Assembly: GCA_001275005.1 (NCBI GenBank)
Contig: JWZX01001827.1
Span: forward strand, 1-40,935
Reading direction: 5' to 3'
Source: Chrysochromulina tobinii
Lineage: Eukaryota
DNA: 40,935 nt
A program made the position numbers and the translations under genes. Below the pieces are notes generated by a model. The model worked only from the letters and a program-made list of their open reading frames with translations. It was not told where the DNA came from and did not search any database. This document shows positions 152 to 40,935 of the stretch, piece after piece; position 1 is the stretch's first letter; each line of letters begins with the position of its first letter.

Positions 152-2127
152 ATGATACATGGCGAGAGAACGCGGCTCCACCCCGGCACGGTGTGCATCC
201 TTTCGGCTCCGGGCCGCCCCTTCGACGGGGATATGTGCGTCGTTGAAAAGTATGACTCTGCGCGCAGCAAGTGGCAGGTGCGACTGCGCGCGCCGGAACA
301 CAACAGCAAGCAGCTGCTGGTGCCTGAGGCGGTGATGAGGCTCGCCTTCTGCATTTTGCCCTCGTCGATCACCTTGTTGAAGCGGCACGCCGCGCTGCGC
401 GACGATGCCATGCAGGGCTCATGCGGCCGCGGCTTCATCCTCGGCGGCACCGACATCATCGAAAAAGGCACAGTGCTCTACGAAGAGCCTCCACTCTTCA
501 TCACGCCCACGGGCACGCCGAACCAGCACAACGACCGCTGGCGAGCCTACCTTACGATGTCGATGTCGGCCTCCGAGGGCCAGATCGGCATGCCCGAGGC
601 TCTCAAGGCGTTCGACGACCTGGGCATCGCCGACCGCGTCCAAGATTCGGTCACTGCGGCCGCGGCCAACATCGTCAACGACGCCATCCGCTCGGCGGGT
701 GCATCGATGAGCGTCGGGGAGCGCGAGGTGCAGGTGCAGCGCGTGCGCGACGCGCTCATGCGCTTCCAGTCCAACCAGTTCCGGTTCGAGAACAGCGCGG
801 TGCCAGACCAGTCAGCGAACTTCTCCGCCTCGGCCGTCTTCATCCTCACTTCGCGTCTCAACCACGCATGCCAGCCGAACACCTTCGTCGATACGAAGAA
901 GGTGTGAATGCCTCGTGTGATGGCCTCGTGAATGCCACACTGTACGCGCGCTTGAGCGCCGCCCTGAGCGCCGCCCTGAGCGCCGCTGATTGCCTCCCTC
1001 CTCAGGCGTGCATGCTGATTGCCTCCCTCCTCAGGCGCACTTCTTCCCTGGGAGCATCGTCAAGGACGATGGCATCCTAACCGCGAAGGCACTGCGCCCG
1101 ATCGAGCCGGGCGAGCGGCTCACCCTGTGCTATGGGCCCAAGGACCTCCCGTCATGGCCGCTGCAGAGGCGTCGCGAGTATCTGCTCGAGAAGAACGGCT
1201 TCCTCTGCTGCTGTGCGCTGTGCGTCGCCGAGGAGAGGGACGGTCCATCCGTCGTCGTGCGTACGGGCGCCGAGACGGGCGCCGCTGCCTCGGTCACAGA
1301 GGCGCCCGGCACGGCGCCCATCCCGGTTACGGCGCAGACGGTTACGGCGACGCCAACGCTCACGCCAACGCTCGAGGACAAGGAGGAGGCCATCAGACGA
1401 TCCTTTCTGCCCTCCTTTCTCCAGGAGAAGGCCGGCGCCCGGACTGGCGCTGTGGCGGGCGCCTCTGTGGTCGCGAAGGCCACGTCGCGCTCGAAGAGTG
1501 GCTCGAAGAGTACGAGCTCGTCCGAGGGCCGAACGCGCGCCTGATTGCCTCCCTCAGTGCATGCTGATTGCCTCCCTCATCAGGTACGAGCTCGTCCGAG
1601 GCTCGAACGCGCGCCTGATTGCCTCCCTCATTGCATGCTGATTGCCTCCCTCATCAGGTACAAAATCGTCCGAGGCCCGAGCACGCGCCAAGGCCAAACT
1701 CTCCTCTGCAGCCGCCCTCGAGCCAACTGCGGAGGATCTGGCGGCGGAGAGAGCGGCTGCGGCCCTCATCGCTGAGGAGGAGGCGGAGAAGGCAGCTCGT
1801 GCGAAACACACGGCGAGGACGAGCAGGGCTGAGGCCGGCACGGCGGCTGCAGTGGCCAGCGTGCACAAAGTCGTACCTCGAAAGAACGCGATCGCCACTG
1901 GCAGGGCCCCCGACGCTGTAGTGACCAACGGCGCGGAGAAGCGCCAGCCGGAGTGGGCTTCCAATTCCACAGAGCCCTCGCCGCAACGAGCACGCCGCTC
2001 TGAGCGGGAGCCGCCGCCGCTGCGCACTCCGAACGAAGGTCGGGCTGTGCTCGTGGGTGCACTTGTCCTGGGCGCCACCGTGCTGCTCGCAGCGGCGTTC
2101 CTCGCCCGTCGGAGATCGGCACGCTGA
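152..2127 (+). CDS. SMYD-type SET domain methyltransferase with C-terminal hydrophobic anchor; exons 152-901, 1035-1509, 1658-2127
   Basis: SET motifs GRGF, RLNHACQPN and ALRPIEPGERLTLCYG, plus post-SET GFLCCCALC. GT-AG introns 902-1034 (phase 0) and 1510-1657 (phase 1) join ORFs 137-907, 990-1544 and 1642-2127 in frame. C-terminus AVLVGALVLGATVLLAAAFLARRR. Confidence 0.85.
902..1034 (+). other. Spliceosomal intron 1 of SET gene, with a duplicated 3' acceptor module
   Basis: AAG|GTGTGA donor; GCTGATTGCCTCCCTCCTCAG|GCG occurs twice (ending 1005 and 1034); only the second restores frame. Confidence 0.8.
1510..1657 (+). other. Double intron (2 x 74 nt) of SET gene
   Basis: Units 1510-1583 and 1584-1657 each start GTACGAG and end CTCATCAG; removing both restores the frame. 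Confidence 0.8.
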
Positions 2128-8567: not shown

Positions 8568-8653
8568 ATGTGACTATCAACACAACGCGGCGCGCGCGCG
8601 CAAACTTGTTGCTCGTCGCCCAAAGCGACGCGGCTTCTAGGGCACTCCCGAGC

Positions 8654-22188: not shown

Positions 22189-22520
22189 CGTACGGCCCAA
22201 GAACGAAGGGAAGGTGCAGTGTGCCGGGACCCGGGCTCGGCTGACAAATCCCCTATTCCGGTGTACGGCCGTTTACGACGTGCCGTGCTCGTAGCCCGCC
22301 GCTATCTACATTCTGATGTTCCCGCGTTGCACTCTGATGGCCCCGCCCAAAGAGGCGTTCAACACACAAGTCTTCCCTCCCGGCAGCGCACCGACAGCGG
22401 AGTGAGCTGACGAAGCTGACGAAGCTGACAGCGGAGCGAGCCCTCTAAGGCACTAGCGCCGTGCCGAGCAGGATACTGAGCTGACGAAGCTGACGAAGCC
22501 GTGACAGCGGAGCGAGCCCT

Positions 22521-23561
22521 CTAAGGCGCTAGCGCCGTGCCGAGCAGGATACGTCCCTTCTCCTCGGCTCGAGCGGCCCACTTTTCACTCGCAGAGGGCG
22601 CAGAGGGCGCAGAGGGCGCAGCGGGGGAAGGCAGCGCCGGCGCCGGCGCCGGCAGTGGAGGAGGCGGCGCGTAGGCAGACTTCGCTGGCGCTGCGACGAC
22701 GCCACCGCCGCCGCCGCGGCCGCCGCCGACGCCGCCGCCGCCGCCGACGCCGCCGCCGCCGACGCCACCACCACGGCCCTGCCAGAGGAGGTAGCCGTTA
22801 AAGAGGCCCCACGCCGCGAGCCCGACGAGACCGAGCGCGAGGGCGCTCGACAGCAGGTCGAAGTGCCCAGTCGAGCTTGGGGGCTGGGCCGAGGGCGGCG
22901 GCGAGGGCGGCGGCGAGGGCGGCGGGGGGCTGCACGCGTACGACCACACGCCCCACCCACAAGATGGCGGGATGGCGGGCGGCGGCATCGAAGGAGGCGG
23001 CGGAGAGGGCGATGGGGGCGAAGGAGAGGGCGAGGGCGGCGGGAACGGAGGCGGCGGCGTGGGTGGCGGCGGCGTGGGTGGCGGCGGCGTGGGTGGCGGC
23101 GGCGTGGGTGGCGGCGGCGTGGGTGGCGGCGGCGTGGGTGGCGGCGGAGTGGGTGGCGGCGGAGTGGGTGGCGGTGGCGTGGGTGGCGGTGGCGTGGGAG
23201 GAGGTGGCAGCGGCGGCGGCGAGGGTGGCACTGGTGGCGGAGGAAGAGCTGGCGGCGGCGGCGGCGGCGGGCACTCAGTCCCGAAACCGAGCCACCAAAA
23301 GCCGCACTGTACTCGGGCGTCGATTATCGGCACGTGGCTCATGGCCTTCATGCCGGTCGACGACTCGACGCTACCCACACTCCTTGGCTGCACTCGCAAT
23401 GGTGATTCTGATGCTGACGACCATGCCGCCACAGCAGTGGCAGCGATGATGAGGCCGGTGCCTGTGAGTCCGACGAATCTCAACATCGGTGCGCATGAGA
23501 CAGGCGCATCGTCCGTGGGTGCCAGCGCGACGTACTGCGTCTCGATCGCCGTCGTTGCCAT
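22521..23561 (-). CDS. Proline-rich (extensin-like TPPPP/SPPP) membrane protein
   Basis: Two hydrophobic segments flanking (TPPPP)n and SP repeats, with two small CGxWW..C motifs. Confidence 0.7.
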   Translation of the reverse strand: MATTAIETQYVALAPTDDAPVSCAPMLRFVGLTGTGLIIAATAVAAWSSASESPLRVQPRSVGSVESSTGMKAMSHVPIIDARVQCGFWWLGFGTECPPPPPPPALPPPPVPPSPPPLPPPPTPPPPTPPPPTPPPPTPPPPTPPPPTPPPPTPPPPTPPPPTPPPPTPPPPFPPPSPSPSPPSPSPPPPSMPPPAIPPSCGWGVWSYACSPPPPSPPPSPPPSAQPPSSTGHFDLLSSALALGLVGLAAWGLFNGYLLWQGRGGGVGGGGVGGGGGVGGGRGGGGGVVAAPAKSAYAPPPPLPAPAPALPSPAAPSAPSAPSASEKWAARAEEKGRILLGTALAP

Positions 23562-23737
23562 CGCGGCAGAAATCGGCACCCCGCCATTGGAAGGCGGAAA
23601 GATGCAAGAGAATCTCCTATCGCGCTGCGTGAATAGACACGTTTCGTCAAATCACCCGACCGTTTCCAGCCGCGGGTTGGTTCGTGGTCTTCAGGAAAGC
23701 AAATCCGGACGAGCTAGAATTACGCGCGGCGCCGAGA

Positions 23738-24622
23738 ATGGTTATCCACGACGTGAGCTCGGCCAGTTGGCGCCCGCCCACCGAGGGAACTGCCTACGAG
23801 GTGCTCGGCGTTGCACCTTCAGCCGACGCACGCGAGCTCAAGGCGCGCTATTACAAGATTGCGCGTGCGTGGCATCCGGATGTGTCGAAACATTCAGACG
23901 CGCCGGTCGTCTTTGCGCGCATCACGCAGGCGTACGAGATCGTCACACACCCACAGCAGCGGCTCGTGTACGACTTCGTACTCGCCAACGAGATCCCGCT
24001 CACCACGCCGGATCGCTTCCTGTCTTTTTATGCCACCGCCAATCGGATCGATGCGCTCATTCGGTACCGACACAGCATCGGCTGGGCGATCGCGGGCACT
24101 GCCGGCGCGCTCGTGGTCGCTGCGCGGTGGCGAAGCCTGCGGCCTCCGCCCTTGGCAGAGACGGCCGAAATGGCCGATGCGCCAGCGACGCCAGCGGTGC
24201 CAGCGACGGCGACAGCTGCGCCACGGCCGAGCGTCGCCGCGGGTGGACTGCTAGGAGCTGCTGGCGGGAGCGGCGTGATGCTGGCGCTCGGTGTGGCAGG
24301 AGCGCCCGGCGCACGCTTCACGCTCGTCGCCTCCGCCGCCGGCGCGCTCGGCGGCCGTGCACTGACTGCGTGGCTCGAGGCTCGCGTGGGGCGCATGCGC
24401 ACGCTCAGCACGCGCACTGTGGAAGCGCTCGCCACCAACGGCCAACCGCTGTGCGAGGCTTCCGGAGCCGCCATCGGCCTCCTACTGCTGCGCCGCGCGA
24501 GCCCTGCGCTCCGGCTAGCCGAGGCGCACCTTCGCGCGGCGCGCGTGGCCCTTCTCGGCGCACTCGGTGGCCATGTCGTGGGCAGGCTGAGCGTACACAG
24601 TGGTGAAAGTCCTAGGGAGTAG
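23738..24622 (+). CDS. DnaJ (J-domain) membrane protein
   Basis: AYEVLGVAPSADARELKARYYKIARAWHPD...FARITQAYEIV...QRLVYD; hydrophobic G/A-rich segments downstream. Confidence 0.9.
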   Translation: MVIHDVSSASWRPPTEGTAYEVLGVAPSADARELKARYYKIARAWHPDVSKHSDAPVVFARITQAYEIVTHPQQRLVYDFVLANEIPLTTPDRFLSFYATANRIDALIRYRHSIGWAIAGTAGALVVAARWRSLRPPPLAETAEMADAPATPAVPATATAAPRPSVAAGGLLGAAGGSGVMLALGVAGAPGARFTLVASAAGALGGRALTAWLEARVGRMRTLSTRTVEALATNGQPLCEASGAAIGLLLLRRASPALRLAEAHLRAARVALLGALGGHVVGRLSVHSGESPRE

Positions 24623-24967: not shown

Positions 24968-25089
24968 CAAGTCAAATCTATACATAAACAACAGACAACC
25001 ATACGGAAGCCTATCGAATGTGCTCCGGCGGCCAGCAGTGGTGGAAGGGATTGGGCGAAGTTGACAAGAACTTGACTTGACTTGTCTTG
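24968..25089. mobile_element. Short MITE-family copy with both (CAAGT)/(ACTTG) termini
   Basis: CAAGTCAAATCTATACATAAACAACAGACAACCATACGGAAGCCTATCG...ACTTGACTTGACTTG; no clean TSD. Confidence 0.82.
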
Positions 25090-25093
25090 AAGT

Positions 25094-26852
25094 ATGTTGA
25101 AAAAAGATTTGAAGTCGAAAAACGGGCACATGCACGGAAACAGCAAAGTCGAAGCAAAGATGTCGGAAGGCGAGGCCCCTTTGCTCACGGTGGAGCCTCC
25201 CAACGAATATCGGCAAGAAGCGGCGCACATAGGTCACCAGCTGCCACAAGTGCTGATGCCAACGCCATACCTGCCAGCCATGCAAATGCCTCCCAGCGGC
25301 CAGCCCATGCCAGCGGGTCAAACCCCTCCGCAGTATGCCACGATCACCGATGCAAACGGCAACCCGATAGTCGTCCAGTATGTTCCGTGGGCTCCGATGG
25401 CGCACGCTCCCTCGCAAAACAAGGCGCACGAGGTTGCGCTGCCCCCACAGTCGCTGTCATCATCTGGGGCAGGTGCTTTCCGGCGGCCACTCGCCACACA
25501 GCAGCAGTTCGCGATGGTGAATCCCAATCTATTCAACGCCAGTGGCGTGCTGTCGTGGCAACCAATGGGGAATCATGCCGCTATCGCTAATGCGACAGCG
25601 GCAGCAGCAGCGGCAGCGGCAGCGGCCGCGGCAGCGGCAGCGGCAGCGGCCGCTGCGGCGGGTGCTCCGATGGCAGCAGATCGGAGCAGTGGCGGCGACG
25701 ATGGCGGCGCGCCGCTCTCATGGGGAGGAAGTGGCACTGGCGTCCCAAGAACTGTTCCGATGGCCGGATGGCCACAGGAGAGCAGCTACGATCAGACGAA
25801 ACGCTCCTTGACGGGATTGGATGGCCAGGGGATCGGATGGCAGGTGCGCATGACCAAACGGCCATCTGAGTGCCTCAGATGACCTCTGATGACCTCCGAG
25901 TACGCCCCTCATCAGGTGCGGATGACGAAGCGCCCGTGGGACGCCGAAGAGGATGCCGAGCTCACGGCGGTCGTCGCGCGACTCGGGGCGGGCGCGTGGA
26001 GCCGCGTGGCGCTCGAGGTGGGTTGCGGACGCTCCGGAAAGCAGTGCCGCGAACGATGGTACAACCACCTCGAGCCGGGCGTCAACAAGGGCGAATGGAC
26101 GGCAGAGGAGGACTTGCTGATCCAAGAGGGCGTGCGCTTGTATGGCAAGCGCTGGTGCGAGCTCGTCCAGCCGCCCTGAGCGCCATCTGATTGCCTTCTT
26201 TTCAGACAAGAGCAAACGTAGGTGACCTCTGATGACCTCCGATGACCTTCGATGACCTCCGATTACGCCCCTCATCAGGTGTGAAATCGTCAAGCTGCTC
26301 CCTCCGGGCAGGAGTGACAATGCAGTCAAGAATCGTTACAATTCCAACCTGCGCAAGAACCAGCGTGCAGATGAGCGTGCCGAGAAGATGGCCGAGAAGG
26401 AGGCGGCGCGCCTCGAGCGCGAAACAGATAAGGGAGCGGCGAGGGCTGCAGATCTGGGCATTAATCAACGGCAGCGGACCGCAGCAGGGTCTTCTGCCGC
26501 TGACCTGAGGGACGATTTTGAAGCCCTCGAGGCTAAAAGTCTCCTCGCCGTCAAGCAGTTCAAGGTTGGCAGCACCGTACGCGTGTCTGACGACAGGCCG
26601 AGCGAGGGTGGCGGCGCTGGTCGCAAGCGCATGCGTGCATCAGCCAAGGGCGTGGACGGTGGTGGCAGCTCTTCAACCCCTCAGCCCATCTTGTACGCTG
26701 AGAGCGAGATTCTCTTCCCCAAGGGGCAGCAGACCCAGGAGGCCTTAGTACCCCCTGACATTCCGCATCCGACGAGGGGACGGGATGAGGACGAGGTCGA
26801 GGGTGGAGAAGTGTTCGTCCTCGAGGCGTTCGCCATCGCGACCTCCCCCTAA
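25094..26852 (+). CDS. R2R3-type MYB transcription factor; exons 25094-25843, 25916-26154, 26279-26852 (start codon uncertain)
   Basis: KRPWDAEEDAEL...GRSGKQCRERWYNHLEPGVNKGEWTAEED...GKRW|CEIVKLLPPGRSDNAVKNRYN reconstituted by GT-AG introns 25844-25915 and 26155-26278. Confidence 0.92.
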
Positions 26853-27413
26853 GCTGACGAAGCTGACGAACTCGGCTTCGTCTGCTTCGTCAGCTCAGCG
26901 CCGGCGCGGCCTCCGAACCGCACGACGGGTTCGGACGCACGTGACGCGCCACAAGCATGGCACATGACACATCGATGTGACTGTGCCGATGTGACGTGGC
27001 TCGTGCGGCGTCGCGGCGCGCCGCGCACCTGTCCGCGATCTCCGATGGCGCTCGCGCTGGCCGCCCCCGATGTGCGTCATCTCGAAGGAAGTAGAGCGTA
27101 GAGCGGCATGCTGTCGGCATTACTACCAACTACCATCCGCGTCCCGTCCCCGCTGTTCGGCCCCGGCGGAGGCAAGATTCCGCATTCGCGAGGCGTAACT
27201 ATAAGAGACCGCCCCCGCGCCGCGCCGACCGAACGGTTACGCGGCACACCTTGGTACGCGGCGCGCGCGGGCGCGCGGTGTCACACTGGAGAGAAATATC
27301 ACGTCAGTTGGGAGAATAGAACAGTGTAGATTTAGCATGAATTTGCGCCAGACCTTCCGGTTACTGACCTTGATGTGCTTGACGATTTAACTTCATCGCG
27401 ACCCCGTTTGCCG

Positions 27414-28514
27414 TTAGGACCCGGCCTGCCAGAGCTTCACTGCGCCATCGTCTCCACATGATGCTAACCACCCCGCGCGCTCCGTACTTGCCGCTTGGGG
27501 TCGCGTCGGTCGCCAGCTAACCGAATTGACGTCTCCAGCATGCGCATCGGATTGAATCCCGATCAACTCGAGCTGGCTCTCGCCGCCGTTCCCGCCCTCC
27601 GTGCCGCTGCCGAAGTGGGCGCGCAGCAATCCGATGGCATTGTCGCCGGAGGCGGTGGCGATGTACCCCAAGCCGCTCGCCTCCGGTGCCCAGCTGACCG
27701 CGTAGACGGCACGCTCGTGCACGTCGGCCGCGGTGGCGGCGAGCACGTACCCGCACTCGCCCGTTAGGTCGCGCCAGAGAGAGACCGAACGGTCGTCCGA
27801 ACATGAGACCAGGCCACGCCCGTCAGGCGAGAAGGCGAGGCACCACACCGTGGACTGGTGGGCGCTCAGCGTGGCGAAGCATCGCCAGTCGTCGTCGTTG
27901 GGCGCGTAGAGCTTGAGCGTGTCGTCGTACGAGGCCGACGCGAGCACCTCTTGCTGTGGGTGCCACGCGACCGCCTTGACATCCGCAGCATGCGAGTGCA
28001 GCACAGCGGCAACCTCGTACTCCTCCTCCTCGGCCTCCCAGATGAAGACGCTTCTGTCGCGGCCGCACGTGGCAAGCATGGTGCCCGACGCGGCCCAGCT
28101 CACGGCCTTGACCTCGTTCTCGTGACCTTCGAGCGACGCTACGCAGTCAAAGTCTCCGTCATTGTACTCCCACACGGAAGCCATGCCGTCGAAGCTGCAC
28201 GTAGCCAAGTACCGTGCATTGGGCGACCACTCGCACCAGCGGATCGTGCGCTGGTGCGCGTCCTCCAGGACTGCGACGCAGTGCCACGCGGCCGCCATCG
28301 CCGCTGCGGTCGGCGCGGGCAGCGCCTCGGCAGAGAGCGCCCACAGCCGGATGGTGCGGTCTTCGCCACATGTGGCAAGCAAATCTCCTCGCGGATCCCA
28401 GGCGAGGTGCCACACGCGCGGCTCGGCGTGGCCGGTGAGCGTGCCGAGGAGCTTGATGAACTGGGAGGCTGGCTGCGCCTTTTCGGTACTCTGAGCGACC
28501 GCGTCGCCCTCCAT
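27414..28514 (-). CDS. CIA1: Cytosolic Fe-S assembly WD40 protein CIA1/CIAO1
   Basis: HQRTIRWCEWSP, CVASLEGHENEVKAVSW, LATCGRDRSVFIWE, DVKAVAWHP..EVLASASYDDT, HAGDVNSVSW. Confidence 0.93.
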   Translation of the reverse strand: MEGDAVAQSTEKAQPASQFIKLLGTLTGHAEPRVWHLAWDPRGDLLATCGEDRTIRLWALSAEALPAPTAAAMAAAWHCVAVLEDAHQRTIRWCEWSPNARYLATCSFDGMASVWEYNDGDFDCVASLEGHENEVKAVSWAASGTMLATCGRDRSVFIWEAEEEEYEVAAVLHSHAADVKAVAWHPQQEVLASASYDDTLKLYAPNDDDWRCFATLSAHQSTVWCLAFSPDGRGLVSCSDDRSVSLWRDLTGECGYVLAATAADVHERAVYAVSWAPEASGLGYIATASGDNAIGLLRAHFGSGTEGGNGGESQLELIGIQSDAHAGDVNSVSWRPTRPQAASTERAGWLASCGDDGAVKLWQAGS

Positions 28515-28794: not shown

Positions 28795-29874
28795 TCAGGC
28801 AAGATCAAGAGCTGCACCCGCTGCGCCGATGCCCGTCTCCGAAAAGACGAGCCACGCGGCGCCGATGGCCGCGCAGTCGGGGCCGAGGGACGAGCGCACA
28901 ATGCGGCACTTGCCTCTGGTGGCCGGCAGCGTCGAGGCATCAACGGCCGCCTCGATGCCCTCATATAGCTCGGGCGTGGACGATAGGCCACCGCCGAGAA
29001 CGATGACGCTCGGGTTATAGAAGGTCACCAGATTCGCAAGGCCCGCGGCGAGGTCAGCGCGGTAGGCAGTCCACGCCGCCTTCGCCATCGCGTCACCCTC
29101 GCGCATGCGTTGCACCACGCTGCGTGCGTCGTCCAGGCTGATCGCCGCCTCTGACCCTCCCAACGCTCGCCAGTGTCGCACCAGACCCGCCGCTGAGGCA
29201 TGGCACTCAAAGCAGCCGGAGTTGCCGCAAACACATTTGAAGGCGTCGGTGCCGGAGCGCATCACGTGGTGCCCAAAGTCGCCCGCATCGAAGGTGCACC
29301 CATCGAAAAGCACACCTCGGCGGCTCTGGCCGCCATCGTGGATGAGGGCACCACCGATCCCGGTGCCTAGCGTGAGCATCGCCATCACTGAGTGCTCCCC
29401 GCTCGCGCCGACGCCAAAGTGGCGCTCGGCAAGTGCTGCACACCGACCGTCGTTGCGGATATGAACCTTGTCCAACTTTGTGAGCTCGCGTACTGTAGAG
29501 GGCTTGTCGAGATCGTTGCCATCCGCTGCGCGGTCGAGCACCAACGCAGCCAAATCGACGGGCTCGAGCCACCCAAAGTTAGGCAGATAGCGCGCGAGGC
29601 CCTTGTTCGGGTCCACGTTCCCAGGGACTGCGATTCCTACACCCGCGAGCGGCAGGCAATCCGGGAACTCCTTGCTTGCATGCCGCCACACGTTGACAAT
29701 GCACGTGGCCAGCGCCGCCCCAATCAGGTCACGCGAGCCACGGCTCTCCGCGGAGAGGCTTTCACCATGACGTGCGTGCACAATGCCAGCTGGGTCTACC
29801 AGCGCCGCCAGAACGTGCGTACCGCCAAGATCGACCCCGATGGCCAAGACTTGCGGGTGCGAAGGCGCCGACAT
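28795..29874 (-). CDS. ROK-family sugar kinase (glucokinase-like)
   Basis: IGVDLGGT, GIAVPG, NDGRCAALAE, LTLGTGIGGA, GDFGH, CVCGNSGCFE zinc motif, NPSVIVLGGG, AAIGAA. Confidence 0.92.
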   Translation of the reverse strand: MSAPSHPQVLAIGVDLGGTHVLAALVDPAGIVHARHGESLSAESRGSRDLIGAALATCIVNVWRHASKEFPDCLPLAGVGIAVPGNVDPNKGLARYLPNFGWLEPVDLAALVLDRAADGNDLDKPSTVRELTKLDKVHIRNDGRCAALAERHFGVGASGEHSVMAMLTLGTGIGGALIHDGGQSRRGVLFDGCTFDAGDFGHHVMRSGTDAFKCVCGNSGCFECHASAAGLVRHWRALGGSEAAISLDDARSVVQRMREGDAMAKAAWTAYRADLAAGLANLVTFYNPSVIVLGGGLSSTPELYEGIEAAVDASTLPATRGKCRIVRSSLGPDCAAIGAAWLVFSETGIGAAGAALDLA

Positions 29875-30081
29875 GCGACGACCCGACCGAATCTCGTGGT
29901 CATCTCTGATACTCTGATCATGTTTTTACACATCCAAGCCGCCGACGCCCAAACCATCCTCAACGCCGCTAGCGCGCGCATGCTCCGCGTCTCATATGGG
30001 GTCATGTAAGGTGTGTGTATTCTGAGCGGGCAGTAACAGTGCCGTAGCACCGGTTTCTGTCGCGTCTGTCGTGTTAACGTT

Positions 30082-30369
30082 CAAGTCAAGTCAAGTCAAG
30101 TCTATACATAAACAACAGACAACCATACGGAAGCCTATCGAATGTGCTCCGGAAGCCAGCAGGGGAGGACGGGAGTAGGCGGAGATGACGGAGGGGGGTC
30201 CATAATGAGGTGACACGTCATAGATGCTGACATACGTGCCCTCGGAGAAGAAGTAGGTGAGAAGTAACGGGCCGATCTCGAGCCGATGAGCGCCACTCTT
30301 ACGCCGAAGAGGAAATCGGCTCGAGATCGACCGTGGCGTCAAGCATAAGACTTGACTTGACTTGACTTG
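30082..30369. mobile_element. Non-autonomous DNA transposon (MITE), 288 bp, with pentamer-repeat TIRs and 8-bp TSD
   Basis: Starts CAAGTCAAGTCAAGTCAAGTC and ends GACTTGACTTGACTTGACTTG; flanked by TTAACGTT at 30074-30081 and 30370-30377. Confidence 0.88.
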
Positions 30370-30586: not shown

Positions 30587-30627
30587 GACTTGACTTGACT
30601 TGACTTGACTTGACTTGACTTGACTTG
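30587..30627. repeat. (GACTT)8 array, orphan right terminus of the MITE family
   Basis: Same pentamer as the MITE termini. Confidence 0.8.
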
Positions 30628-30713
30628 ATCCAAAAAGCGCCCCCGCCACTTGATGAGTCCCGAGGGACCCGAGGGCCGTCCAGCGCGTCCAGCCGAAGAC
30701 AAAGAACGAAGAC

Positions 30714-31508: not shown

Positions 31509-31551
31509 TTAGGGCAGATTAGGGAGATTAGGGCAGATTAGGGAGATTAGG
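31509..31551 (+). repeat. Interstitial telomere-like repeat, TTAGGG(C)AGA x4 plus a partial copy
   Basis: TTAGGGCAGA TTAGGGAGA TTAGGGCAGA TTAGGGAGA TTAGG. Confidence 0.75.
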
Positions 31552-32085: not shown

Positions 32086-32664
32086 CTAGTTGTACAGGAA
32101 GGGGAGGCCGGTGATGAGTTTGTCGAGGCCGTCGAAGCCGGGCGAGACGAAGTTCTGCGAATCGTGGCGCAGGAGCTCGAGGGAAGCGAGCATGGCGATG
32201 CGGCCGTGCTGGAGCTCGCAGAGCTTGCGGCGCTCCAACTCCTCCTCGTCGAGCTGGGGCTTGCCAATGCTGAAGTCGCCGAGGACACCCCAGTAGTCGA
32301 CGGCGCCGATGAGGAAGACCATCTGCAGCCAGCCGAGCGACGGGATGGCGTTGATGGCGGCGACGCCGTTGGGGATATCGGCGAAGGCGACGCCCGGGGC
32401 GATCTCGCCGGGGAAGCGGTAGAACTCCGGCACGACGTAGCCGAGGACGCAGAGCTGCGCCACGCGGCCGTGCTTGAGCTCGGCCGTGCGGTACTGGGCG
32501 AAGGTATCCTCGTCAATGTCTGTGGAGAGGCCGAGGGGGTCAAAGAATCCGGTGGGAGCGATGACGCCGAGCTCGTTCTCGTACGTCATCGAGATCGGGC
32601 GCGAGCGCATGACCGGGGCCTGGAAGGCCTGGACGGAGGCGGCGAGAGCGACGATGGCGGACAT
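32086..32664 (-). CDS. Fucoxanthin chlorophyll a/c-binding light-harvesting protein
   Basis: Signal peptide with VQAFQAP (ASAFAP-like), GFFDPLGL, ELKHGRVAQL, ELQHGRIAMLA. Confidence 0.96.
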   Translation of the reverse strand: MSAIVALAASVQAFQAPVMRSRPISMTYENELGVIAPTGFFDPLGLSTDIDEDTFAQYRTAELKHGRVAQLCVLGYVVPEFYRFPGEIAPGVAFADIPNGVAAINAIPSLGWLQMVFLIGAVDYWGVLGDFSIGKPQLDEEELERRKLCELQHGRIAMLASLELLRHDSQNFVSPGFDGLDKLITGLPFLYN

Positions 32665-33298
32665 TTCTTTTGATTGCTGCGAGCGAGAGAAGAAGAGGAT
32701 GCGTGAACATCATGAAGGCATTTGACCAAGGCGTGCTGTCACAGGCGGTCTTGCGCGCGCGCGTGAGCTGCAAGTAAGGTGAACGGCCGGCTTGGAGATG
32801 TGCATGGCAGCCGCGCGCCCGTGTTGTGCACGCGGCGAAGCCACGGCACTGCTTGCGTTGCAAGGTGAAGCATCATCTCACATGAGGTGCGAAAATGAGG
32901 GAGAGCGAGGAGATGCGAATTGAGAATTTAATTTACGACGCGCCATGAAAGGCAAGTGGAGTCAACTATAGTCATGTTCATTGGGAACGCAGTCCGACAG
33001 ACGAGGCGCGGACGGCCTTATTTTTCGATCGCGATCGATTTTCGTTTTTTTATCCGTTCATTACGGCTCGCACCCACCAGCAAACAACATGCTGTGCGCA
33101 CATCGGACATCGCCGGCGGCGCTCGTCACCAATTCGACAGTCTGCCCGTAGTGGTTAGCGGGGCACACCCTAAGGCTCGACGCGTTCCGCGCGCCCCCAG
33201 CGCCCAGGATCCCCAACACGTCACAGAGAGCGACACCGCACGCGCGCACGAGCCTGCGGACGTGCATGTCGCACTGCTGCCGCGGACGTAGCAGCACC

Positions 33299-34180
33299 TT
33301 ACAGCGTCTCACCGATCGGGAAGACCGGGTTGCCAGTCAGCGACTCGTGGATCACCATACCCGTGATGCCCATCATGGCAGCGCGGCCGTTGTTGCGCTC
33401 GGCGTTGAGCTTCCACGTGCGGCCGAGGAAGAGCTCCTCCTTGCCCACCTTTTTCGTCGAGCCGTCGCCCAGCCACACATCGTAGCCGTCGGGGTAGCGC
33501 GCCCACCAATATCCCGCCGGGACTACATCGCCAGGCTCCTTTGCCGGATCCTGCTTAAGGAAGTTAATCTCGCAGAAGGAGATGAAGAGGATGATCTGGA
33601 ACCAGGCGGCGGTGGGGAGCGCGGCCCACGACGCGATCGCGCCGCCCGGAATGTCCGAGAACTTGATGTTGTCCGCGACGGACAGGTAACCCGGCCAGCG
33701 AGCGCCCGAATAGGTGGTGATGACGCCAAGGAAGGCGGCCATTGCCAGGCGGCCGTGCTTGATCTCCATCTCCACGAAGCGGCGGTAGCGGGCGGGGCCC
33801 TGCTCGCGGATCTGCAGCGGATCCCAGCGGCCGAGCGGCGGCAGCACGCCAACCTCGTCGTACTTCGGAACGAAAGTGTTCACCTCGTTGTACGACTTGC
33901 CGGTCACATCAATGAAGGTCGGGCCCGTCTTCTTGGCCGGACGCGGGACAGCCTTCTTGGCGGCCGGCGCCTTCTTGGCGGCCTGCGCCTTCTTGGCGCC
34001 CGGCAAGACGCCCGGCGGCGCCTTCTTGGCCACCCCCTTCTTCCCGCGGAAGTTGACGCGCGGGTCAGCGGTCACATCACCAGCGAAGAACATCTGCGGC
34101 GCCGCGGCGCGCATGCACTGCGGCTGCGGCATGATCTGGGAAACCAGGCCCGAGGAAGCAATCATCGAGAGCGAAAGCAT
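33299..34180 (-). CDS. Fucoxanthin chlorophyll a/c-binding light-harvesting protein with K/A/P-rich N-terminal extension
   Basis: GVLPPLGRWDPL, EIKHGRLAMAAFLG, AERNNGRAAMMGITG. Confidence 0.95.
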   Translation of the reverse strand: MLSLSMIASSGLVSQIMPQPQCMRAAAPQMFFAGDVTADPRVNFRGKKGVAKKAPPGVLPGAKKAQAAKKAPAAKKAVPRPAKKTGPTFIDVTGKSYNEVNTFVPKYDEVGVLPPLGRWDPLQIREQGPARYRRFVEMEIKHGRLAMAAFLGVITTYSGARWPGYLSVADNIKFSDIPGGAIASWAALPTAAWFQIILFISFCEINFLKQDPAKEPGDVVPAGYWWARYPDGYDVWLGDGSTKKVGKEELFLGRTWKLNAERNNGRAAMMGITGMVIHESLTGNPVFPIGETL

Positions 34181-34629
34181 GGCTGGGATCTGCGCAATGG
34201 GGCGGGTTGACGCTTACTCGTCAGCACGAAGCGAATTCTAAAGGCAGCGAAGGGCTCGTCTGGAACAAGGCAGCAGAATCGCAGCACGCCTCGGCTCAAA
34301 GGCCACCGCCGCTGGCGCCTCTGGAGAAGCGCGTGGCACCAGAGCGTTGGCGTGCACGCCATGCCCGCAGGCACGGCTGCTCCGCAGCTCGGAGCTCGCA
34401 GCAGGCAGCACAACAGCACGCAAGGCCGAAGTGGCGCACCGTCGCGAATTAGATCGTCCGACGAAGGTGATCTCTTGCAATCTCTTCGCAATGCCAAATT
34501 GAAGTATGAACGTAAAAGGTCCGCCGAGGTGTCGGGGGGAGGGTCCAAATACGCTACACGCGCTACTATTTTGGTGTGAGCAACTACGGACTGAACAGGA
34601 ACTAGACTCTAGAGACGCGCGGGGGCGGT

Positions 34630-37393
34630 TCAACACCTGACCAGCCTCCCTGCCACAGCCGCGAGCGTGAGCGCGAGCAGCATTGACGCCATCCCCGCTC
34701 GGTGGCGGCCGCCGGGCGGCGCGGCGCTGAGCATGCCGCCATCGCCGGGCCCACCCTCGCCAAAGATGTCGAGCGTCGCTTGCTGACGCGGCGGCGAGGA
34801 AGCTGGAGCAGGCGGGTTGACCCTCTGCGGAATTTGCGGAATGACGAGCCGGCAATAGCCGTCGGCCACGTCGACGTGCACAAGGCGTGGCGCGTACAGG
34901 TCGGTCGGCGGCGGCGCGCTCACGCCGGGCGGGCGTGCGGGCGGCAGGGGCGGCGGCGCTGGCGCGCTCGGACTCGCCGAGCCGATCAGGACGACGAGTT
35001 GCAGCGACTGCGCGCACGCGACGCCATCGTTCAGGACGGCAGGGCGGCCGAGGGCGCGGCTCTGGTCCATTACCTGGGAGAAGCGCACGGTGGCGCCGCC
35101 TGCCTGTGGCAACACGACCTCCGTACTCCCCCCCGCTGGCAGCGACGCACTCGCGTTAAAGAGCAGCGCCGTGCTGAGTAGAGCGCGCGCCGTCAGTCCG
35201 GGCAACGTCGCGCTGGTGCTGGTGCTGGTGCTCACCGTACCGCTCCGAGCACGCAGCTCGTTGATGACGAGCAACCTCACCGTGGACGCCGCTACCTGTG
35301 CACGGGACGAGCCCTCGTCCGCCACGCGCCAGCGCAGGGCGCTGGCACTTCTGCTGCTGACGAATCCGCAGCTGGCACTGCCGCCGCCGCCGCCGCTGTC
35401 GCCCGTGCTGCGCTTGAGAAGGAGCACGTTGCGGGCTTGATTGTGGATCGTGACGCAGTAGATGGGGCTGAGTGGCACGAAGGGCGGCTGCGTCGAGAGC
35501 ACGCGTGCAAATATGTTGCCCACGGCCACATCGGCGATGGTCACCGCGCCAAAGCCGAGCACCGCCGTCCGGTAGTTGAGAGCGAGTAACGACGGTCCCC
35601 ACTCGAGCCGAACCGCCTCGGTGCTAGGCTCGACGTTGAGCATCGCGAGCGAGGACGAGGCGCCCGCGTCGACGACGGAGGCGGGGAGCGAGCACGCCGA
35701 GCTCGTGCCATCGATGCGCATGAGAACTGGGTCAAAGAGGTCGAGGTGGGAGAGGGTGCCCACGAGCACGATCGCGTAGGCGGCGCCCTCGCAGAGAGTC
35801 GACAGGTCTATCCTAACATGGGTCGAGGCGGTGATACCGGGCATGATGAAGGAGAGTTTGAGCAGCTGAGCCGCCTGATGAGGTGCCACTAGCGGGTGGT
35901 CGAAGGCGGCGAATGAGCCCACTGCGACGCTCATCAGCTCGATGTCGTCATTGGCCACGACGGTCGCGTTTGGCATGGATAGCGCCGCATGCGAGAACAA
36001 CAGCCGAAAGTGGAACGGCGAGATCGCCGCCTCAGGCGCGGCGGATTGCTGCATGCGCTCGATGCGCAGGCCGCCGCTGACGCTCGACATGACGCCCATA
36101 ACGTTACGCCGCTGCGTGTGCACCATCAGCCGGTGCATGCTGATGAGGCTCGATCCCGTAGTGCTCTCGACTGCTACCCACAACTCACCCGGCTGGCGGA
36201 CGGTACGCACGCCGACCCCCATGTAGAGAAGGTTGCCTGTGCGCGTGAGCCGCGCGCGCGGCATAAAGGGCGAGACGCCGAAGGCGCTTACGAGCGTCGT
36301 GTTGGGCACCGCGTTGTACACGCTCAGCTCCGCATCGAACCTTGAAGCTGGGCCCGCGAGCTGTGCCTCGGTGTAGGAGCACCTGGTGGGGCCAGCACCG
36401 TCGAGGCGCAGCACCTGCATGCAATCCGTCGCAATCAGCCGCAATCAGAGGCAATTAGAGGCAATCAGGCACCGTCGAGGCGCAGCACCTGCATGCAATC
36501 CGTCGCAATCAGCCGCAATCAGAGGCAATGAGAGGCAATCAGGCACCGTCGAGGCGCAGCACCTGCAGCGGCAGATTGTCCGCAGGGCTGCCGATGAGGT
36601 AGAAGGCGGTGGTCGCCATCTCGCACGTCGTTCCCCACAGGTCCGTTGGCGGCGAGGGCTCGGCGGCGATGCCCGACGTCGGTGTCGCAAAGGTGATGCC
36701 GACAGGGCTGGACATGTCGCTGATCGTGAGCAGCCGCTGCTCGATCTTGATGGAGGTGCCCGCGCTCACGGTCGTGACGATCGACTCGCCGTTGGCGATG
36801 ATCTGCGCCGACGCACCCACGCCGATCGCCGCATGCCGGAAGATGGTGCGAAAGTTGCCCGGCTCGATCTCGCCAAGGCCCTGCTCGTTGATCACCTGAA
36901 AGCGGCTCGTGCAACCGGCGACGCTGCCCTGAGAGATGGCCGCGCCTATATGATTGCGCCGCTGCATCGAGAGGTACACGCGCGTCGGCGCCCGGAGCTG
37001 CGATCCATCGTTCGGGTTGATGATCGATATGTCGAGGTACAGCACGTCGCCGGCAAGTGTGACGTAGAGCTCGCGTCCGTAGCGGAGGAAGAGCTTGCAG
37101 CGCGGCGGATTGGGCACGCGGTATTCGATAGGGCAGCTCAACTGGCCAGCGGAGCCCGATCGCGCTTCGTCAGGGAACTGCAACTCGATGGCCTGCAGGG
37201 CGCTGCACGCAGCCACGTTGAAGAAGGAGAGGGTCGTGTTGCTCGGCGGCGCAGGTGGCGAGGGCGGCGGTGGACCACGTGGCGGCGAGGGCGGCGGCGG
37301 CGGGAAGATGATTCTCGGGATGCTCTGAGCGACACTGAGCGGGGAGCTGGCGAGGAGCAGAATGGACGAGCGTTGAATCGCCATTGGCCCCAT
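34630..37393 (-). CDS. Secreted/surface-anchored beta-rich protein with DUF4397-like repeats; exons 37393-36563, 36414-34630
   Basis: N-terminal signal-like SILLLASSPLSVAQS, Pro linkers, repeated motifs (TIFRHAAIG, LSVYNAVP, LLFSHAALS, AYAIVLVG), hydrophobic C-terminus. Phase-0 double intron 36562-36415 joins ORFs 36539-37396 and 34630-36444. Confidence 0.72.
36415..36562 (-). other. Double intron (2 x 74 nt)
   Basis: Units 36562-36489 and 36488-36415 each run GTGCTGCG...GCATGCAG and differ at one base. Confidence 0.85.
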
Positions 37394-38402
37394 CACTTGT
37401 AATACATGTCATGTACGAAATATGGGCCCAGGGGGCGAGCCGCGAGGGCTGGGGACCCGCTTTTCTTTTCGTCTCTCTATACAAAAACTTGCACACGGAC
37501 CCGGTCAGGAGCGGAAACCGCGGACGCCACCTACGGACGCCTCCCACGCAGCCGGGCGGATCGGCGGCGGGCGCAGGCCTGCGGCGCACGCCGCAGCCGC
37601 GCCGACATCGGTGCGAGGCAGCAGCCTCTGCGGGGAGGCGACGATGGCGGGGCGCGGCGCGTGGAGACTAGATGGCGGGGCGCGGCGCGTGAAGACAATC
37701 GCGCCATCGTCGCCTCCCCCGGTTCTGCTCGGACGTCGTCCCCACATCGCCTTGCACAATGCGCTGACGCTTCCTTTTACTACCGTCCCCGTCGGGGCGG
37801 CGTTGGAGACGCCGGCGGCATCGAACCTGCGTGCACCGACGCGCCCGATGGCGCGCCTCCCCCGTGGGGAACGCAAAGACGCACTCGACACCGTCGCATG
37901 ACGACGGTGTCGAGCACGAGTAGCTTCCGCCGCCGCCTCCTCCGTGGGTGTCAAGCCGCAGGCCGAGGCACCACATTCGGCGCCGGTTGCGCCGCGCGGC
38001 GCGCGGCGTCGGCGCCTTCGCCGCCGCACCTGCACAGCACGCGCGCGCACTCAGCGCCATCGTGCTGCGGGCACGAGCTGGCCCGCAGCTTGGGAATCCG
38101 AGCGCAGCTCCTCCGTAGCGCGCGCGCGTCAAGGCGCGCGGCGAACGGGGCGCGCGCAGGTCGATGGCAAATGGAGAGATTCTCGGGAGCAGCTCTGCTC
38201 TCCGACGCGCCTGGAGCCGGCCGCAGCGGTGCGGAGGCGCGCATCGTGCGGAGGCAAAAAAAGGTTGCACGGAGCACGAATTAAAGGGGGTCCGAGCCAG
38301 TACCCTGAAAGGCTGCTGCGCTCGCCTTTTTCAGGGTCCCCAGGATAACCATGGAACATGTATTCAACGTCATGCAAACTTGGTCCTGCCGTGTGTCTGA
38401 TG

Positions 38403-38436
38403 TCAAGTCAAGTCTAAACATAAACAACAGACAGTT
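38403..38436. mobile_element. Left-end fragment of the MITE family between 40-bp direct repeats
   Basis: TCAAGTCAAGTCTAAACATAAACAACAGACA, flanked by repeats 38363-38402 and 38437-38476. Confidence 0.75.
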
Positions 38437-38538
38437 TTCAACGTCATGCAAACTTGGACCTGCCGTGTGTCTGATGAAGGTCGACAGATGAATGCACATG
38501 TGCATGGTCAGATAAGAGGTATCGGCAGGCTTCGCCAT

Positions 38539-39471
38539 ATGTCGGCGAGCAACGTGGCTGAGGCCCTTCCCTTTCTCAATGACGCGCGCGCAAACGTGCG
38601 CGAGGTGGCGGCCGTGGGCCTCGCGAGCCTCACCTCGACGTCGGAGCCTCACCTCGACGAGTACGACGCCGACGATCGCAGCCGTGCCGTCGCGTGCCTG
38701 CCATCCGCGGGCCCGAGGGAGTCGGTGCCGCCATTCATATCCAAGCTCTATGACATCCTCTCCCATTCGAACGTTCCGACCGACACCATCAGGTGGGGCG
38801 CCAATGGCGACACGATCGTGGTGACCGATCAGGAGCGTTTTGCAACTGAAGTGCTGCCGCGCTATTTCAAGCACAACAACATCCGCTCGTTCGTCCGGCA
38901 GCTCAACAGCTACCGATTCCAGCGCTGCCGACCGGCCGCGGACGAAATGGGTGAGCACGGCCGGCTCGAGTTTTACTTGCCGACCTTCCGAGCCGGTCGC
39001 AAGGACCTGCTCTGCTACTGCACGCGCGGCAACGTGCCGCAGAGGCTGCCGCCTGGGATGTCGTGGTCGCCGCTGCCGCTCCACGTCGAGGCCCGGGCGT
39101 CGACGGCCTCCGCCCCCGCCCCCATCAGCCTCCCAGATGATACGCTTGCTCTATCGAAGGAGTTAATAAGCGTGCAAGAGGCCATCGCCATGCTTGACGC
39201 GCAGGTCAATCGGCAAGCAAGCGAGATGCAAGGGCGCGTCGGCATGCTCATTGACCTCCTCGGACTACGACCGCCGCCGCCTAACGTGCCTGCCGAACCC
39301 TTTCCCGCCGAGCCTGCCCCGCGGCCGCGGCATGGGCCGCAGATGGGGTTGCGGCACGCAGCGCCCCCGCATGCGACGACCCCGCATGCGCCGCAACCGC
39401 CGATAATGGCGCTCGCCGACCTGCCCCCATCCGCGGACCTCGGCTCGCAGCCGTGCACGATGGGCAGTTGA
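38539..39471 (+). CDS. Heat shock transcription factor (HSF DNA-binding domain plus short coiled coil)
   Basis: PPFISKLYDIL...IRWGANGDTIVV..ERFATEVLPRYFKHNNIRSFVRQLNSYRF...EFYLPTFRAGRKDLL. Confidence 0.92.
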   Translation: MSASNVAEALPFLNDARANVREVAAVGLASLTSTSEPHLDEYDADDRSRAVACLPSAGPRESVPPFISKLYDILSHSNVPTDTIRWGANGDTIVVTDQERFATEVLPRYFKHNNIRSFVRQLNSYRFQRCRPAADEMGEHGRLEFYLPTFRAGRKDLLCYCTRGNVPQRLPPGMSWSPLPLHVEARASTASAPAPISLPDDTLALSKELISVQEAIAMLDAQVNRQASEMQGRVGMLIDLLGLRPPPPNVPAEPFPAEPAPRPRHGPQMGLRHAAPPHATTPHAPQPPIMALADLPPSADLGSQPCTMGS

Positions 39472-39751: not shown

Positions 39752-40807
39752 TCATTCTTCGCCGGGCCCTCCGCCCAGGTGGCGCCGGCGCAGCTGGTCG
39801 CGGCGCTCCGCCTCTTCCTTGGCCTCCGCTAGCCAGTCGTCAGCGTCTACGCCTCCGTCGACCGTGACAATCGGTGTCCACTCGAGCGCCTCAGCCTCTG
39901 AACGCACCACGGGGGCGCCGGGCTCGATGGCGGGCTGGGCGGCCGCGCCCGTCAGGCGCGCCGCGAGCAGCTGCTCGCGCACCGCGATCGCCACCGCTCC
40001 CTCGAGATCAGGTAGGCCGAGGTCCGCGCAGAGCTGCCGTGCAAACTGCTCGGGGGTTGGCTCTGTGCGGCTCGTGTCCCATATGACGTGGTCGCGCAAC
40101 TCGACGCCTGACTCATGCTCCACGTGCAGCTCGAGCGCCACCACGCCGCCTCCCGCGCTCGAGGGGCCGCCGCCGCTGACGCCGCCGACGCCGCCGACGC
40201 CGCCGACGCCGCCGACGCCGCCGACGCCGCCGACGCCGCCGACGCCCCCGCCGCTCTCGGCTGCAGCATCCTGGGCTGCTATTGCCTCCTTGCCAGCCTT
40301 CTTGAGCTGTGCGGCGATGGCCTCCTCGAAGACGGCAGGTAGGCCGACCTCGACGCGCGTGTGCTTGGCGAAGGCGTCGGCCGTCGCGGCGCTCTCGTGC
40401 GCATTCCACAGCACGGTCTCCGTGTACGTGTGCTCCACGCTCGGTGAAAGCTTGCTGCCGTCTATGTCGAGTCGCACGAGCACAAGGAGCTCCGCCGCTG
40501 GCGAGACGGGGTGGAACGTTTCGCGGAGCTGCTCGCCGATGGTGTTGAACGCTGGGGTGCTGGGAAGCGTCACCGGCTCGGCTGCCGTCGCTGCAGCCAC
40601 CGCCGCGCGCGCCCTCGCTTTTGTCACCTCGTCGATCGCCATTTGCACGACCGGCGCCACCGGTTGCGGCTTATACGGCTCCGGCTCGGCCGGCGTGTCC
40701 GGCGGCAGCGGCGGCGGCGGCGGCGGCGGCGGTGCGGGCGGCGGCGGTGCGGGCGGCGGCAGAAGCGGCGGAGGCTGGTCCGCGCGCTTCTTTTTATACG
40801 TCGACAT
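39752..40807 (-). CDS. SNF5/INI1/SFH1-family chromatin remodelling subunit
   Basis: Two SNF5 repeats (VRLDID...ETVLWN...ADAFAK...GLP; LELHVE..LRDHVIWD...TPEQFARQLCADLGL...AIAVREQL) and C-terminal VRSEAEALEWTPIV...ERRDQLRRR. Confidence 0.85.
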   Translation of the reverse strand: MSTYKKKRADQPPPLLPPPAPPPPAPPPPPPPPLPPDTPAEPEPYKPQPVAPVVQMAIDEVTKARARAAVAAATAAEPVTLPSTPAFNTIGEQLRETFHPVSPAAELLVLVRLDIDGSKLSPSVEHTYTETVLWNAHESAATADAFAKHTRVEVGLPAVFEEAIAAQLKKAGKEAIAAQDAAAESGGGVGGVGGVGGVGGVGGVGGVGGVSGGGPSSAGGGVVALELHVEHESGVELRDHVIWDTSRTEPTPEQFARQLCADLGLPDLEGAVAIAVREQLLAARLTGAAAQPAIEPGAPVVRSEAEALEWTPIVTVDGGVDADDWLAEAKEEAERRDQLRRRHLGGGPGEE

Positions 40808-40935
40808 CAATGTTGTGTTCGTCGACACCTACCAGCTTAATCGGGGTTAAGGCCATCTTCTCTTCACGGCGCCGTAACAGCGCCTCAAAGGCCCGTTCCG
40901 ATGCTACCGTACTGTTCACCGGAACCATACAGGAC

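What the first reader, a model, noticed from the sequence alone, without database searches (positions are those of the whole stretch)
25844..25936. MYB intron 1 begins with a synonymous-only copy of the next exon
Seen: intron start GTG CGC ATG ACC AAA CGG CC versus exon 2 start GTG CGG ATG ACG AAG CGC CC. Identity is 16/20 and all four differences are synonymous third positions (both read VRMTKRP). The intron is 72 nt and ends in GATGACCTC repeats plus CCCCTCATCAG. A neutrally decaying intronic copy should mutate at any position. Inference: the intron copy preserves an older or other-allele coding state, or is translated in an intron-retained isoform that stops at 25882, before the MYB domain.
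Basis: partly seen in the sequence, partly recalled or inferred. Interest (0 to 1): 0.7.

Follow-up and report, generated by a model that had tools for sequence, protein, structure and literature searches.

The report
Introns that copy their neighbours
In a freshwater haptophyte alga about half of the introns sampled begin with a 10-55-base copy of the next exon and some carry a tail nearly identical to a neighbouring intron, which suggests that new introns are likely made by a local DNA copying error; the "synonymous-only" pattern flagged in this MYB intron is likely chance.

Summary
Intron 25844-25915 is spliced in RNA contigs of 3 of 4 runs, and its first 20 nt match exon 2 at 16 positions, with four synonymous differences. 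The interpretation mostly fails. In 74 other frame-called introns of this kind, 29 of 78 mismatches are synonymous (37%). That exceeds intron-only decay (25%, P=0.009) but equals what drift of both copies gives (34-40%). This intron is the only all-synonymous one of 18, and MYB intron 2's copy alters conserved residues.

The larger feature is the architecture. About half of the G[TC]-starting introns sampled open with a variable-length duplicate of the next exon, joined with microhomology to a repeat-rich acceptor tail. Tails resemble nearby introns: the two MYB introns hold 2 of 3 copies of a rare acceptor among 182, and adjacent introns are alike in 11 of 44 pairs against 8 of 110. Best reading, inferred: local template switching copies a neighbour's 3' end and duplicates the target. 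The scan noted this class before in the same genome (e1-2577349), read there as a mobile element. Intron gain was not polarised.

The parts
25094..25843 (+). MYB gene exon 1 (low-complexity N-terminus; start codon taken as first ATG of the frame, inferred)
   Evidence: RNA pieces 25666-25840 and 25147-25578
25844..25915 (+). Intron 1, 72 nt, GT..AG, phase 0
   Evidence: (joint in X12, X14, X16)
25844..25863 (+). 20-nt copy of the start of exon 2 (16/20); supplies the donor
25864..25915 (+). 52-nt decamer-repeat tail with acceptor; homologous along its length to the tail of intron 2 and sharing its rare acceptor variant
   Evidence: 0.85 ungapped identity
25880..25882 (+). Stop codon met if intron 1 were retained (262-aa product without the MYB domain)
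25916..26154 (+). Exon 2: first MYB repeat and start of the second; its first 20 nt are the duplicated target
   Evidence: Pfam PF00249 E=2.3e-22, two stretches
26155..26278 (+). Intron 2, 124 nt, GT..AG, inside the Trp codon
   Evidence: joint in X12, X14, X16
26155..26171 (+). 17-nt copy of the start of exon 3 (13/17; two synonymous and two non-synonymous differences)
   Evidence: homologues keep the exon residues
26279..26852 (+). Exon 3 to stop
1510..1657 (+). Second window example: two tandem 74-nt units, each opening with a 32-nt copy of the next exon (6 mismatches, 2 synonymous)
   Evidence: splicing inferred from piece ends of one X12 contig, the joint row itself was not shown
36415..36562 (-). 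Third window example: two tandem 74-nt units, each opening with a perfect 20-nt copy of the next exon
   Evidence: RNA contigs of X12 and X16 skip 148 nt

Best explanation
Intron 1 is an ordinary spliced intron whose first 20 bases duplicate the start of exon 2, likely made when DNA synthesis switched template to the tail of a neighbouring intron and back, and its four synonymous differences are likely the chance result of both copies drifting. Shown: the duplication, the splicing, the frequency of the architecture, the synonymous share, an excess of microhomology at the copy-tail junction, and resemblance of tails to nearby introns. Inferred: a nascent strand 10-55 nt past a G|GT site anneals by a few bases to the decamer repeats of a nearby intron, copies through its AG, then re-anneals at the G|GT site and copies the exon start again. 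The first copy supplies the donor and the captured tail supplies branch point and acceptor, so the mRNA is unchanged. When the template is the intron's own tail, one slip adds a further unit at the 3' side and gives the tandem two-unit introns. Afterwards the intron copy mutates freely and the exon mainly at synonymous sites. The confidence figure is for the copying mechanism; for 'synonymous-only is chance' alone I put about 0.85.
For: Frequency: 74 of 161 G[TC]-start acceptors have a copy scoring 10 or more near the intron start (null 0.1%). Among acceptors not picked by the scan pattern it is 22 of 55, and 48 of 64 are followed by GT against 5.5% after any AG. Copy length varies, 10-36 nt for the 5th-95th percentile; 38 of 102 are perfect. 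Junction microhomology: mean 2.07 against 1.27 nt, 14 of 41 with 3 nt or more against 16.7%, P=0.0016; 41 of 61 units were evaluable. Local tails: the rare acceptor occurs in 3 of 182, two of them the MYB introns. Adjacent introns share 24 or more of 31 nt in 11 of 44 pairs against 8 of 110 more distant pairs on the same contig, P=0.004; within-contig permutation gives 7 of 37 against 3.8, P=0.039. The best template is local in 6 of 31 against 0.34 expected (5 distinct pairs, two are ties). L041 has a 48-nt tail identical to the intron 590 nt away, between unrelated exons, behind a perfect 25-nt copy. In 25 chains the 5' copy is shorter in 11 and longer in 0. The synonymous share fits drift of both copies.
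Against: No intron-less allele or orthologue was found, so gain is not polarised; paralogues spanning the junctions were only 40-52% identical. In 25 of 31 cases the best tail match was not local, and only 2 of 12 young tails had any sibling at 95% or more. The sample is 0.89 Mb from several strains or species, chosen by an acceptor motif, which lowers similarity between loci. The permutation P is modest. Local resemblance could come from later gene conversion between introns. Donors in the loci are inferred from the copy and from coding scores, not from RNA. In chains the 5' copy is not more diverged (2 against 3, 20 ties).
Confidence: 0.5

Rival explanations
1. A dispersed short mobile element (non-LTR-like, target-primed insertion, or reinsertion of excised intron RNA) carries the acceptor and takes its donor from a long, variable target-site duplication.
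For: Geometry equals introners that carry the 3' site and co-opt the 5' site. The 3' end is fixed: one 19-mer ends 69 of 182 acceptors, a count inflated by the scan pattern. Variable 5' ends and variable duplications are typical of non-LTR insertion (recalled). An E. huxleyi family is annotated '10bp terminal direct repeats, co-opt 5' carry 3'' (PMC12130899 supplement). Reinsertion near the transcribed site could also give a local bias.
Against: Young tails have no near-identical siblings on other loci: median best identity 0.78, and both matches at 0.95 or more are on the same contig. There is no fixed 5' end or TIR (3 of 41 with 7 nt; offsets -3 to +55). Tails are only 28-257 nt of decamer repeats.
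Confidence: 0.2
2. Renewal of old introns: tandem duplication across an existing acceptor adds a unit that starts with the exon copy, and the older 5' unit is later deleted between G|GT repeats. Positions are old and only the sequence is replaced.
For: 17 of 102 most-upstream copies follow an acceptor-like end; several first units carry little or no copy; the 5' copy is shorter in 11 chains and longer in 0. Tandem two-unit introns occur twice in the window.
Against: It does not explain tails shared between different introns of one gene (MYB, L041, L022, L026) without added conversion. 85 of 102 copies have no acceptor-like end directly upstream.
Confidence: 0.2
3. One reading: the intron copy is under coding constraint because a retained isoform is translated, or it was converted from another allele.
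For: 4 of 4 synonymous here; class-wide excess over intron-only decay, P=0.009. Retention cannot be excluded from contigs.
Against: The excess matches drift of both copies; 49 of 78 mismatches are non-synonymous and 3 are stops. No other all-synonymous copy among 17. Intron 2 of the same gene breaks conserved residues. Homologues keep only KR-W in this stretch (RIAKRAW, RVPKRAW, KVPKRAW, IIPKRAW), and a retained product would lack the MYB domain.
Confidence: 0.07

Closest known systems
Introners that carry the 3' site and take the 5' site from the TSD (Symbiodinium; Polarella classes 4/5 and 6/8/10; bioRxiv 10.1101/2020.10.14.339549, parts 1-2 of 4 read; bioRxiv 10.1101/2022.06.06.494994, passages)
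   Same: Donor comes from a duplicated target, acceptor from the inserted part; exons start with the donor dinucleotide; phase-0 bias (53/13/9 here).
   Different: Those have fixed 3-8 nt TSDs, and the Symbiodinium elements have inverted repeats. Here the duplication is about 10-55 nt and variable, the 5' end is not fixed, and the closest siblings are local.
Haptophyte introner families (Chrysochromulina sp. MAG family with 4-bp TSD; E. huxleyi fam24 with '10bp terminal direct repeats', PMC12130899 supplementary file 8)
   Same: Same phylum; fam24 has the same co-opt-5'/carry-3' geometry with a longer direct repeat.
   Different: The Chrysochromulina example has the opposite geometry. fam24 has 5 members and class 'Unknown', and I saw only its table row. 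C. tobinii is listed with 0 families. Whether any catalogued family is this class was not tested.
[quoted passage not shown]
   Same: A direct repeat of adjacent exon sequence at the opposite end of a new intron; internal repeats in young introns.
   Different: Daphnia repeats are 4-12 bp around AT-rich inserts. Here repeats are longer, occur in about half of the sampled introns, and the insert is another intron's acceptor tail.
Tandem genomic duplication and intron transposition models (PMC3443670, section 6 and passages)
   Same: A duplicated exon start gives the donor; a new intron is homologous to an existing one.
   Different: Tandem duplication makes the whole intron from exon sequence around AGGT. 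Transposition by reverse splicing moves a whole intron and, as described there, involves no target duplication. This case is a hybrid of exon copy and another intron's 3' part.

Membership tests
Introner / MITE-derived intron | Fixed-length short target-site duplication | tested here: not met
   Near-perfect copies span 12-34 nt with no mode (41 cases)
Introner / MITE-derived intron | Terminal inverted repeats with a fixed 5' end | tested here: not met
   3 of 41 have a 7-nt inverted end, 31 have 2 nt or fewer; junction offsets are spread. Many introner families also lack TIRs
Introner / MITE-derived intron | Dispersed near-identical copies in unrelated genes | tested here: inconclusive
   Shared 19-nt end and decamers, but 0 of 12 young tails reach 95% on another locus; the sample is a small part of the genome
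Introner / MITE-derived intron | Recent gain shown by an empty orthologous site | not testable with these tools
   No genome held; paralogues too distant
Introner / MITE-derived intron | Autonomous partner (transposase or reverse transcriptase) | not tested
   No whole genome available
U2-type spliceosomal intron | GT..AG ends and exact removal from RNA | tested here: met
   Joints of 72 and 124 nt in three studies
Break-repair / template-switch insertion | Microhomology at the junction | tested here: met
   2.07 against 1.27 nt, P=0.0016; a modest effect
Break-repair / template-switch insertion | Insert templated from nearby sequence | tested here: met
   holds for a minority of introns, and later conversion is not excluded
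Tandem genomic duplication intron (Rogers model) | Whole intron derived from duplicated exon sequence | tested here: not met
   Only 20 of 72 nt match the exon; the rest matches intron 2
Translated retained intron / constrained copy | Synonymous share above drift of both copies | tested here: not met
   37% against 34-40% expected
Translated retained intron / constrained copy | Retention and ribosome occupancy | not testable with these tools
   Only contigs were available

The most novel reading that the evidence does not exclude
In this haptophyte lineage introns breed introns with no transposon: a microhomology-driven double template switch copies a neighbouring intron's acceptor tail into a G|GT site and duplicates 10-55 nt of exon. 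This makes about half of the genome's introns, and the flanking repeats also allow exact loss or tandem growth. It would be a genome-scale, datable, ongoing case of self-propagating spliceosomal introns.
Probability: 0.35. Interest if true: 0.85.

Novelty: new variant of a known kind. Interest (0 to 1): 0.55.

Why it matters
How new spliceosomal introns arise without transposons is a long-standing open question; a 2012 review lists only a handful of cases for transposition or break repair (PMC3443670, Table 1). Here many introns carry a built-in clock (copy against exon) and, in some, a traceable donor intron, so gain, loss and renewal can be tested with one good assembly and a few strains. 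The copies also give a paired neutral-against-synonymous comparison. On the practical side, long exon-intron repeats make junction placement ambiguous (25 bases at one window intron). The specific synonymous-only claim does not matter in itself.

Tried and rejected
Whole genome: none held; records behind the loci not held. Viral contigs: 0 matches to the acceptor motif. One search had a one-base offset in one motif and was redone; its counts are not used. Donor optimisation as a cause of early mismatches: 13 toward and 5 away from my working consensus, P=0.096, not significant. GC-ward bias of intron copies, suggested by two window introns: rejected, 30 against 29. The exon keeping preferred codons, or the intron keeping them: 14 against 15. 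Polarising gain with paralogues among the loci: hits only 40-52% identical. Strain pairs L004/L006, L016/L072 and L026/L037 showed repeat-length changes but no intron presence/absence in the blocks displayed. TIR reading of the inverted heptamer: rejected as a fixed end. Folding: intron 1 z=-2.17, intron 2 z=0.11, so no shared structure. A ROK-kinase homologue search gave no named close relative. X13 lacked the joints, which is no evidence either way. Rows dropped: 27 of 102 copies lacked a confident frame, the focal intron was excluded, and the last 4 matched bases of each copy were trimmed; MYB intron 2 scored below the cut-off of 9 and is not in the 78; 12 overlapping loci were dropped.

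Full report
Observation. The intron runs 25844-25915 (72 nt, GT..AG) and its first 20 bases match the start of exon 2 at 16 positions; all four differences are synonymous. RNA contigs from three studies (X12, X14, X16; 3 of 4 runs laid) join across it and across intron 2, 26155-26278. Exon 2 encodes MYB repeats (PF00249), and the spliced frame is 520 aa. The window is from a haptophyte by best named hits: a light-harvesting protein is 80% identical to Prymnesium parvum, with Chrysotila, Tisochrysis and Diacronema among the next named hits. Holders are mixed-culture and freshwater metagenomes. The genus is not determined.

It is one of a class. Intron 2 also starts with a copy of its next exon (13/17), as do introns at 1510-1657 and 36415-36562, each made of two 74-nt units. 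A scan of metagenome contigs with a degenerate acceptor motif returned 138 stretches, from 2 of 64 parts of the collection; with the window the scripts held 0.89 Mb. Of 290 terminal acceptors, 102 have an upstream copy scoring 9 or more. With a stricter set and a swapped-exon null, 74 of 161 G[TC]-start acceptors score 10 or more (null 0.1%), and 22 of 55 among those not picked by the scan pattern; the excess share at lower scores is 50-64%. Median copy length is 21.5 nt and 38 of 102 are perfect. These loci come from several strains or species, and their donors are inferred, not RNA-mapped.

Frames were called from a self-trained codon model on sequence outside the copy; 75 of 102 were confident. 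Without the focal intron, 78 mismatches in 35 introns fall at positions 1/2/3 as 21/24/33, and 29 are synonymous (37%). A null that keeps the base changes and lets only the intron mutate expects 19.7 (P=0.009). If the exon also drifts at synonymous sites, the expectation is 34-40% (P=0.55-0.91). Subsets gave 33-44%. Three mismatches make stops. Only the focal intron is all-synonymous among 18 with three or more mismatches; the chance of at least one is 0.48, or 0.08 among the 7 with four or more. Intron 2's copy reads L and Q where the exon and four homologues have I and K. Two strains share an identical exon start while their intron copies differ at two sites (L088/L114). So the copy is not constrained, and 4 of 4 is a tail event. 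A retained product would stop after 262 aa, before the MYB domain; retention was not measurable from contigs.

Mechanism. The copy-tail junction has more microhomology than simulated random joins (2.07 against 1.27 nt, P=0.0016, 41 of 61 units evaluable). There is no fixed 5' end or TIR. Tails resemble neighbours. The MYB introns hold 2 of the 3 copies of a rare acceptor among 182, and the 52-nt tail of intron 1 aligns along its length inside intron 2. Adjacent introns are alike in 11 of 44 pairs against 8 of 110 more distant pairs on the same contig (P=0.004; permutation 7 of 37 against 3.8, P=0.039). The best template is local in 6 of 31 cases against 0.34 expected (5 distinct pairs, two ties). 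In L041 a 48-nt tail is identical to the intron 590 nt away, between unrelated exons. Against this, 25 of 31 have a better match elsewhere, as older or repeat-expanded tails might.

For the MYB gene, the exon 1/2 junction and the intron 2/exon 3 junction share six bases, and a six-base word at 25929-25934 recurs at 26179-26184 just before the shared tail. These would be the two switch points (inference). If so, the exon-type bases at the last two differences were the original ones, and one difference may be a small insertion, not a substitution. This is weak, because the same word occurs in a repeat variant at 953-986. In 25 multi-unit introns the 5' copy is shorter in 11 and longer in none, and 17 of 102 most-upstream copies directly follow an acceptor-like end, which points to units being added at the 3' side by slippage across the acceptor. 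I put 0.5 on local template switching with gain, 0.2 on a dispersed element or RNA reinsertion, 0.2 on renewal of old introns and 0.07 on coding constraint.

Comparison with print. Introners with this geometry have fixed 3-8 nt TSDs (10.1101/2020.10.14.339549, parts 1-2 of 4; 10.1101/2022.06.06.494994, passages). Daphnia neointrons have 4-12 bp repeats (PMC4202315, passages). A survey of 213 introns reports 4-30 bp direct repeats near borders (PMC11782384, abstract only). Mechanisms are reviewed in PMC3443670 (passages and section 6) and PMC11282704 (passages). PMC12130899 does not name haptophytes in its main text, but its supplement lists an E. huxleyi family with 10-bp terminal direct repeats and this geometry, and zero families for C. 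tobinii (files 13-14 not searched). PMC9860276's supplement lists many haptophyte families (30 of 155 places seen, file cut when stored). Passages in three haptophyte genome papers said nothing on this (PMC4580454, PMC12480563, 10.1101/2024.01.29.577497). Nine searches listed no paper whose title or abstract start describes long variable exon-start copies with local tail sharing. The library lacks most subscription papers, and bioRxiv supplements were not seen, so this is not proof of absence.

Earlier scan notes. e1-2577349, on another piece of this genome, reported the class and read it as a mobile element; I had found the class before seeing it (precede), and my local-sibling tests came after and argue against a purely dispersed family. 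e1-9545050 reports a similar 3' unit duplication in Rozella, unchecked here.

Verdict. The flagged synonymous-only signal is ordinary. The intron class behind it is a real, frequent and testable variant of duplication-flanked intron origin, with new evidence for local copying but no proof of gain. Interest 0.55.

Noticed in passing
window 902-1034 and 1510-1657 (+): Two introns of one gene share a double-acceptor layout (acceptor-like block, short spacer, second acceptor); the first has no long exon copy. Another possible case of local tail sharing.
   Followed up: partly
window 25873-25915; tails generally: The first seven bases of the common decamer are the reverse complement of the last seven bases of the intron, so the acceptor can pair with an upstream repeat; both MYB introns fold this way in the predicted structures.
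   Followed up: partly
L021 about 2600-2717; L088; L100: Mirror duplications: a copy of the upstream exon end plus donor sits inside the intron, so slippage occurs at both boundaries.
   Followed up: no
L026 10001-10284: Seven head-to-tail 44-nt acceptor units, each followed by GG, not GT; how they are spliced is unclear.
   Followed up: no
L063, L093, L096, L126, L131: Exon starts GC while the intron copy starts GT (5 cases, one reverse): possible selection for a stronger donor after duplication.
   Followed up: partly
window 8542-8575, 25070-25090, 30081-30102, 30349-30369, 30587-30628: Arrays of a 5-nt repeat (GACTT/TCAAG), one just upstream of the MYB start; DNA depth at 8011-9078 is 40-90 times single copy. 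Possibly a promoter-linked or mobile repeat.
   Followed up: no
window 31509-31551: TTAGGG-containing repeat inside the contig, telomere-like by recall.
   Followed up: no
window 32086-32709 and 33299-34213 (-): Two adjacent light-harvesting-type genes; the first is PF00504, the second judged by eye from its translation.
   Followed up: partly
window 23633-24622 (+), 27414-28500 (-), 28795-29925 (-), 38401-39471 (+), 39752-40828 (-): Neighbours: DnaJ, WD40, ROK-family kinase, HSF-type and SNF5-domain genes, each domain within one open frame.
   Followed up: partly
window 22403-22552 and 26851-26895: A 9-nt repeat (AGCTGACGA) follows stop codons; at 26851-26895 it forms an inverted pair right after the MYB stop.
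   Followed up: no
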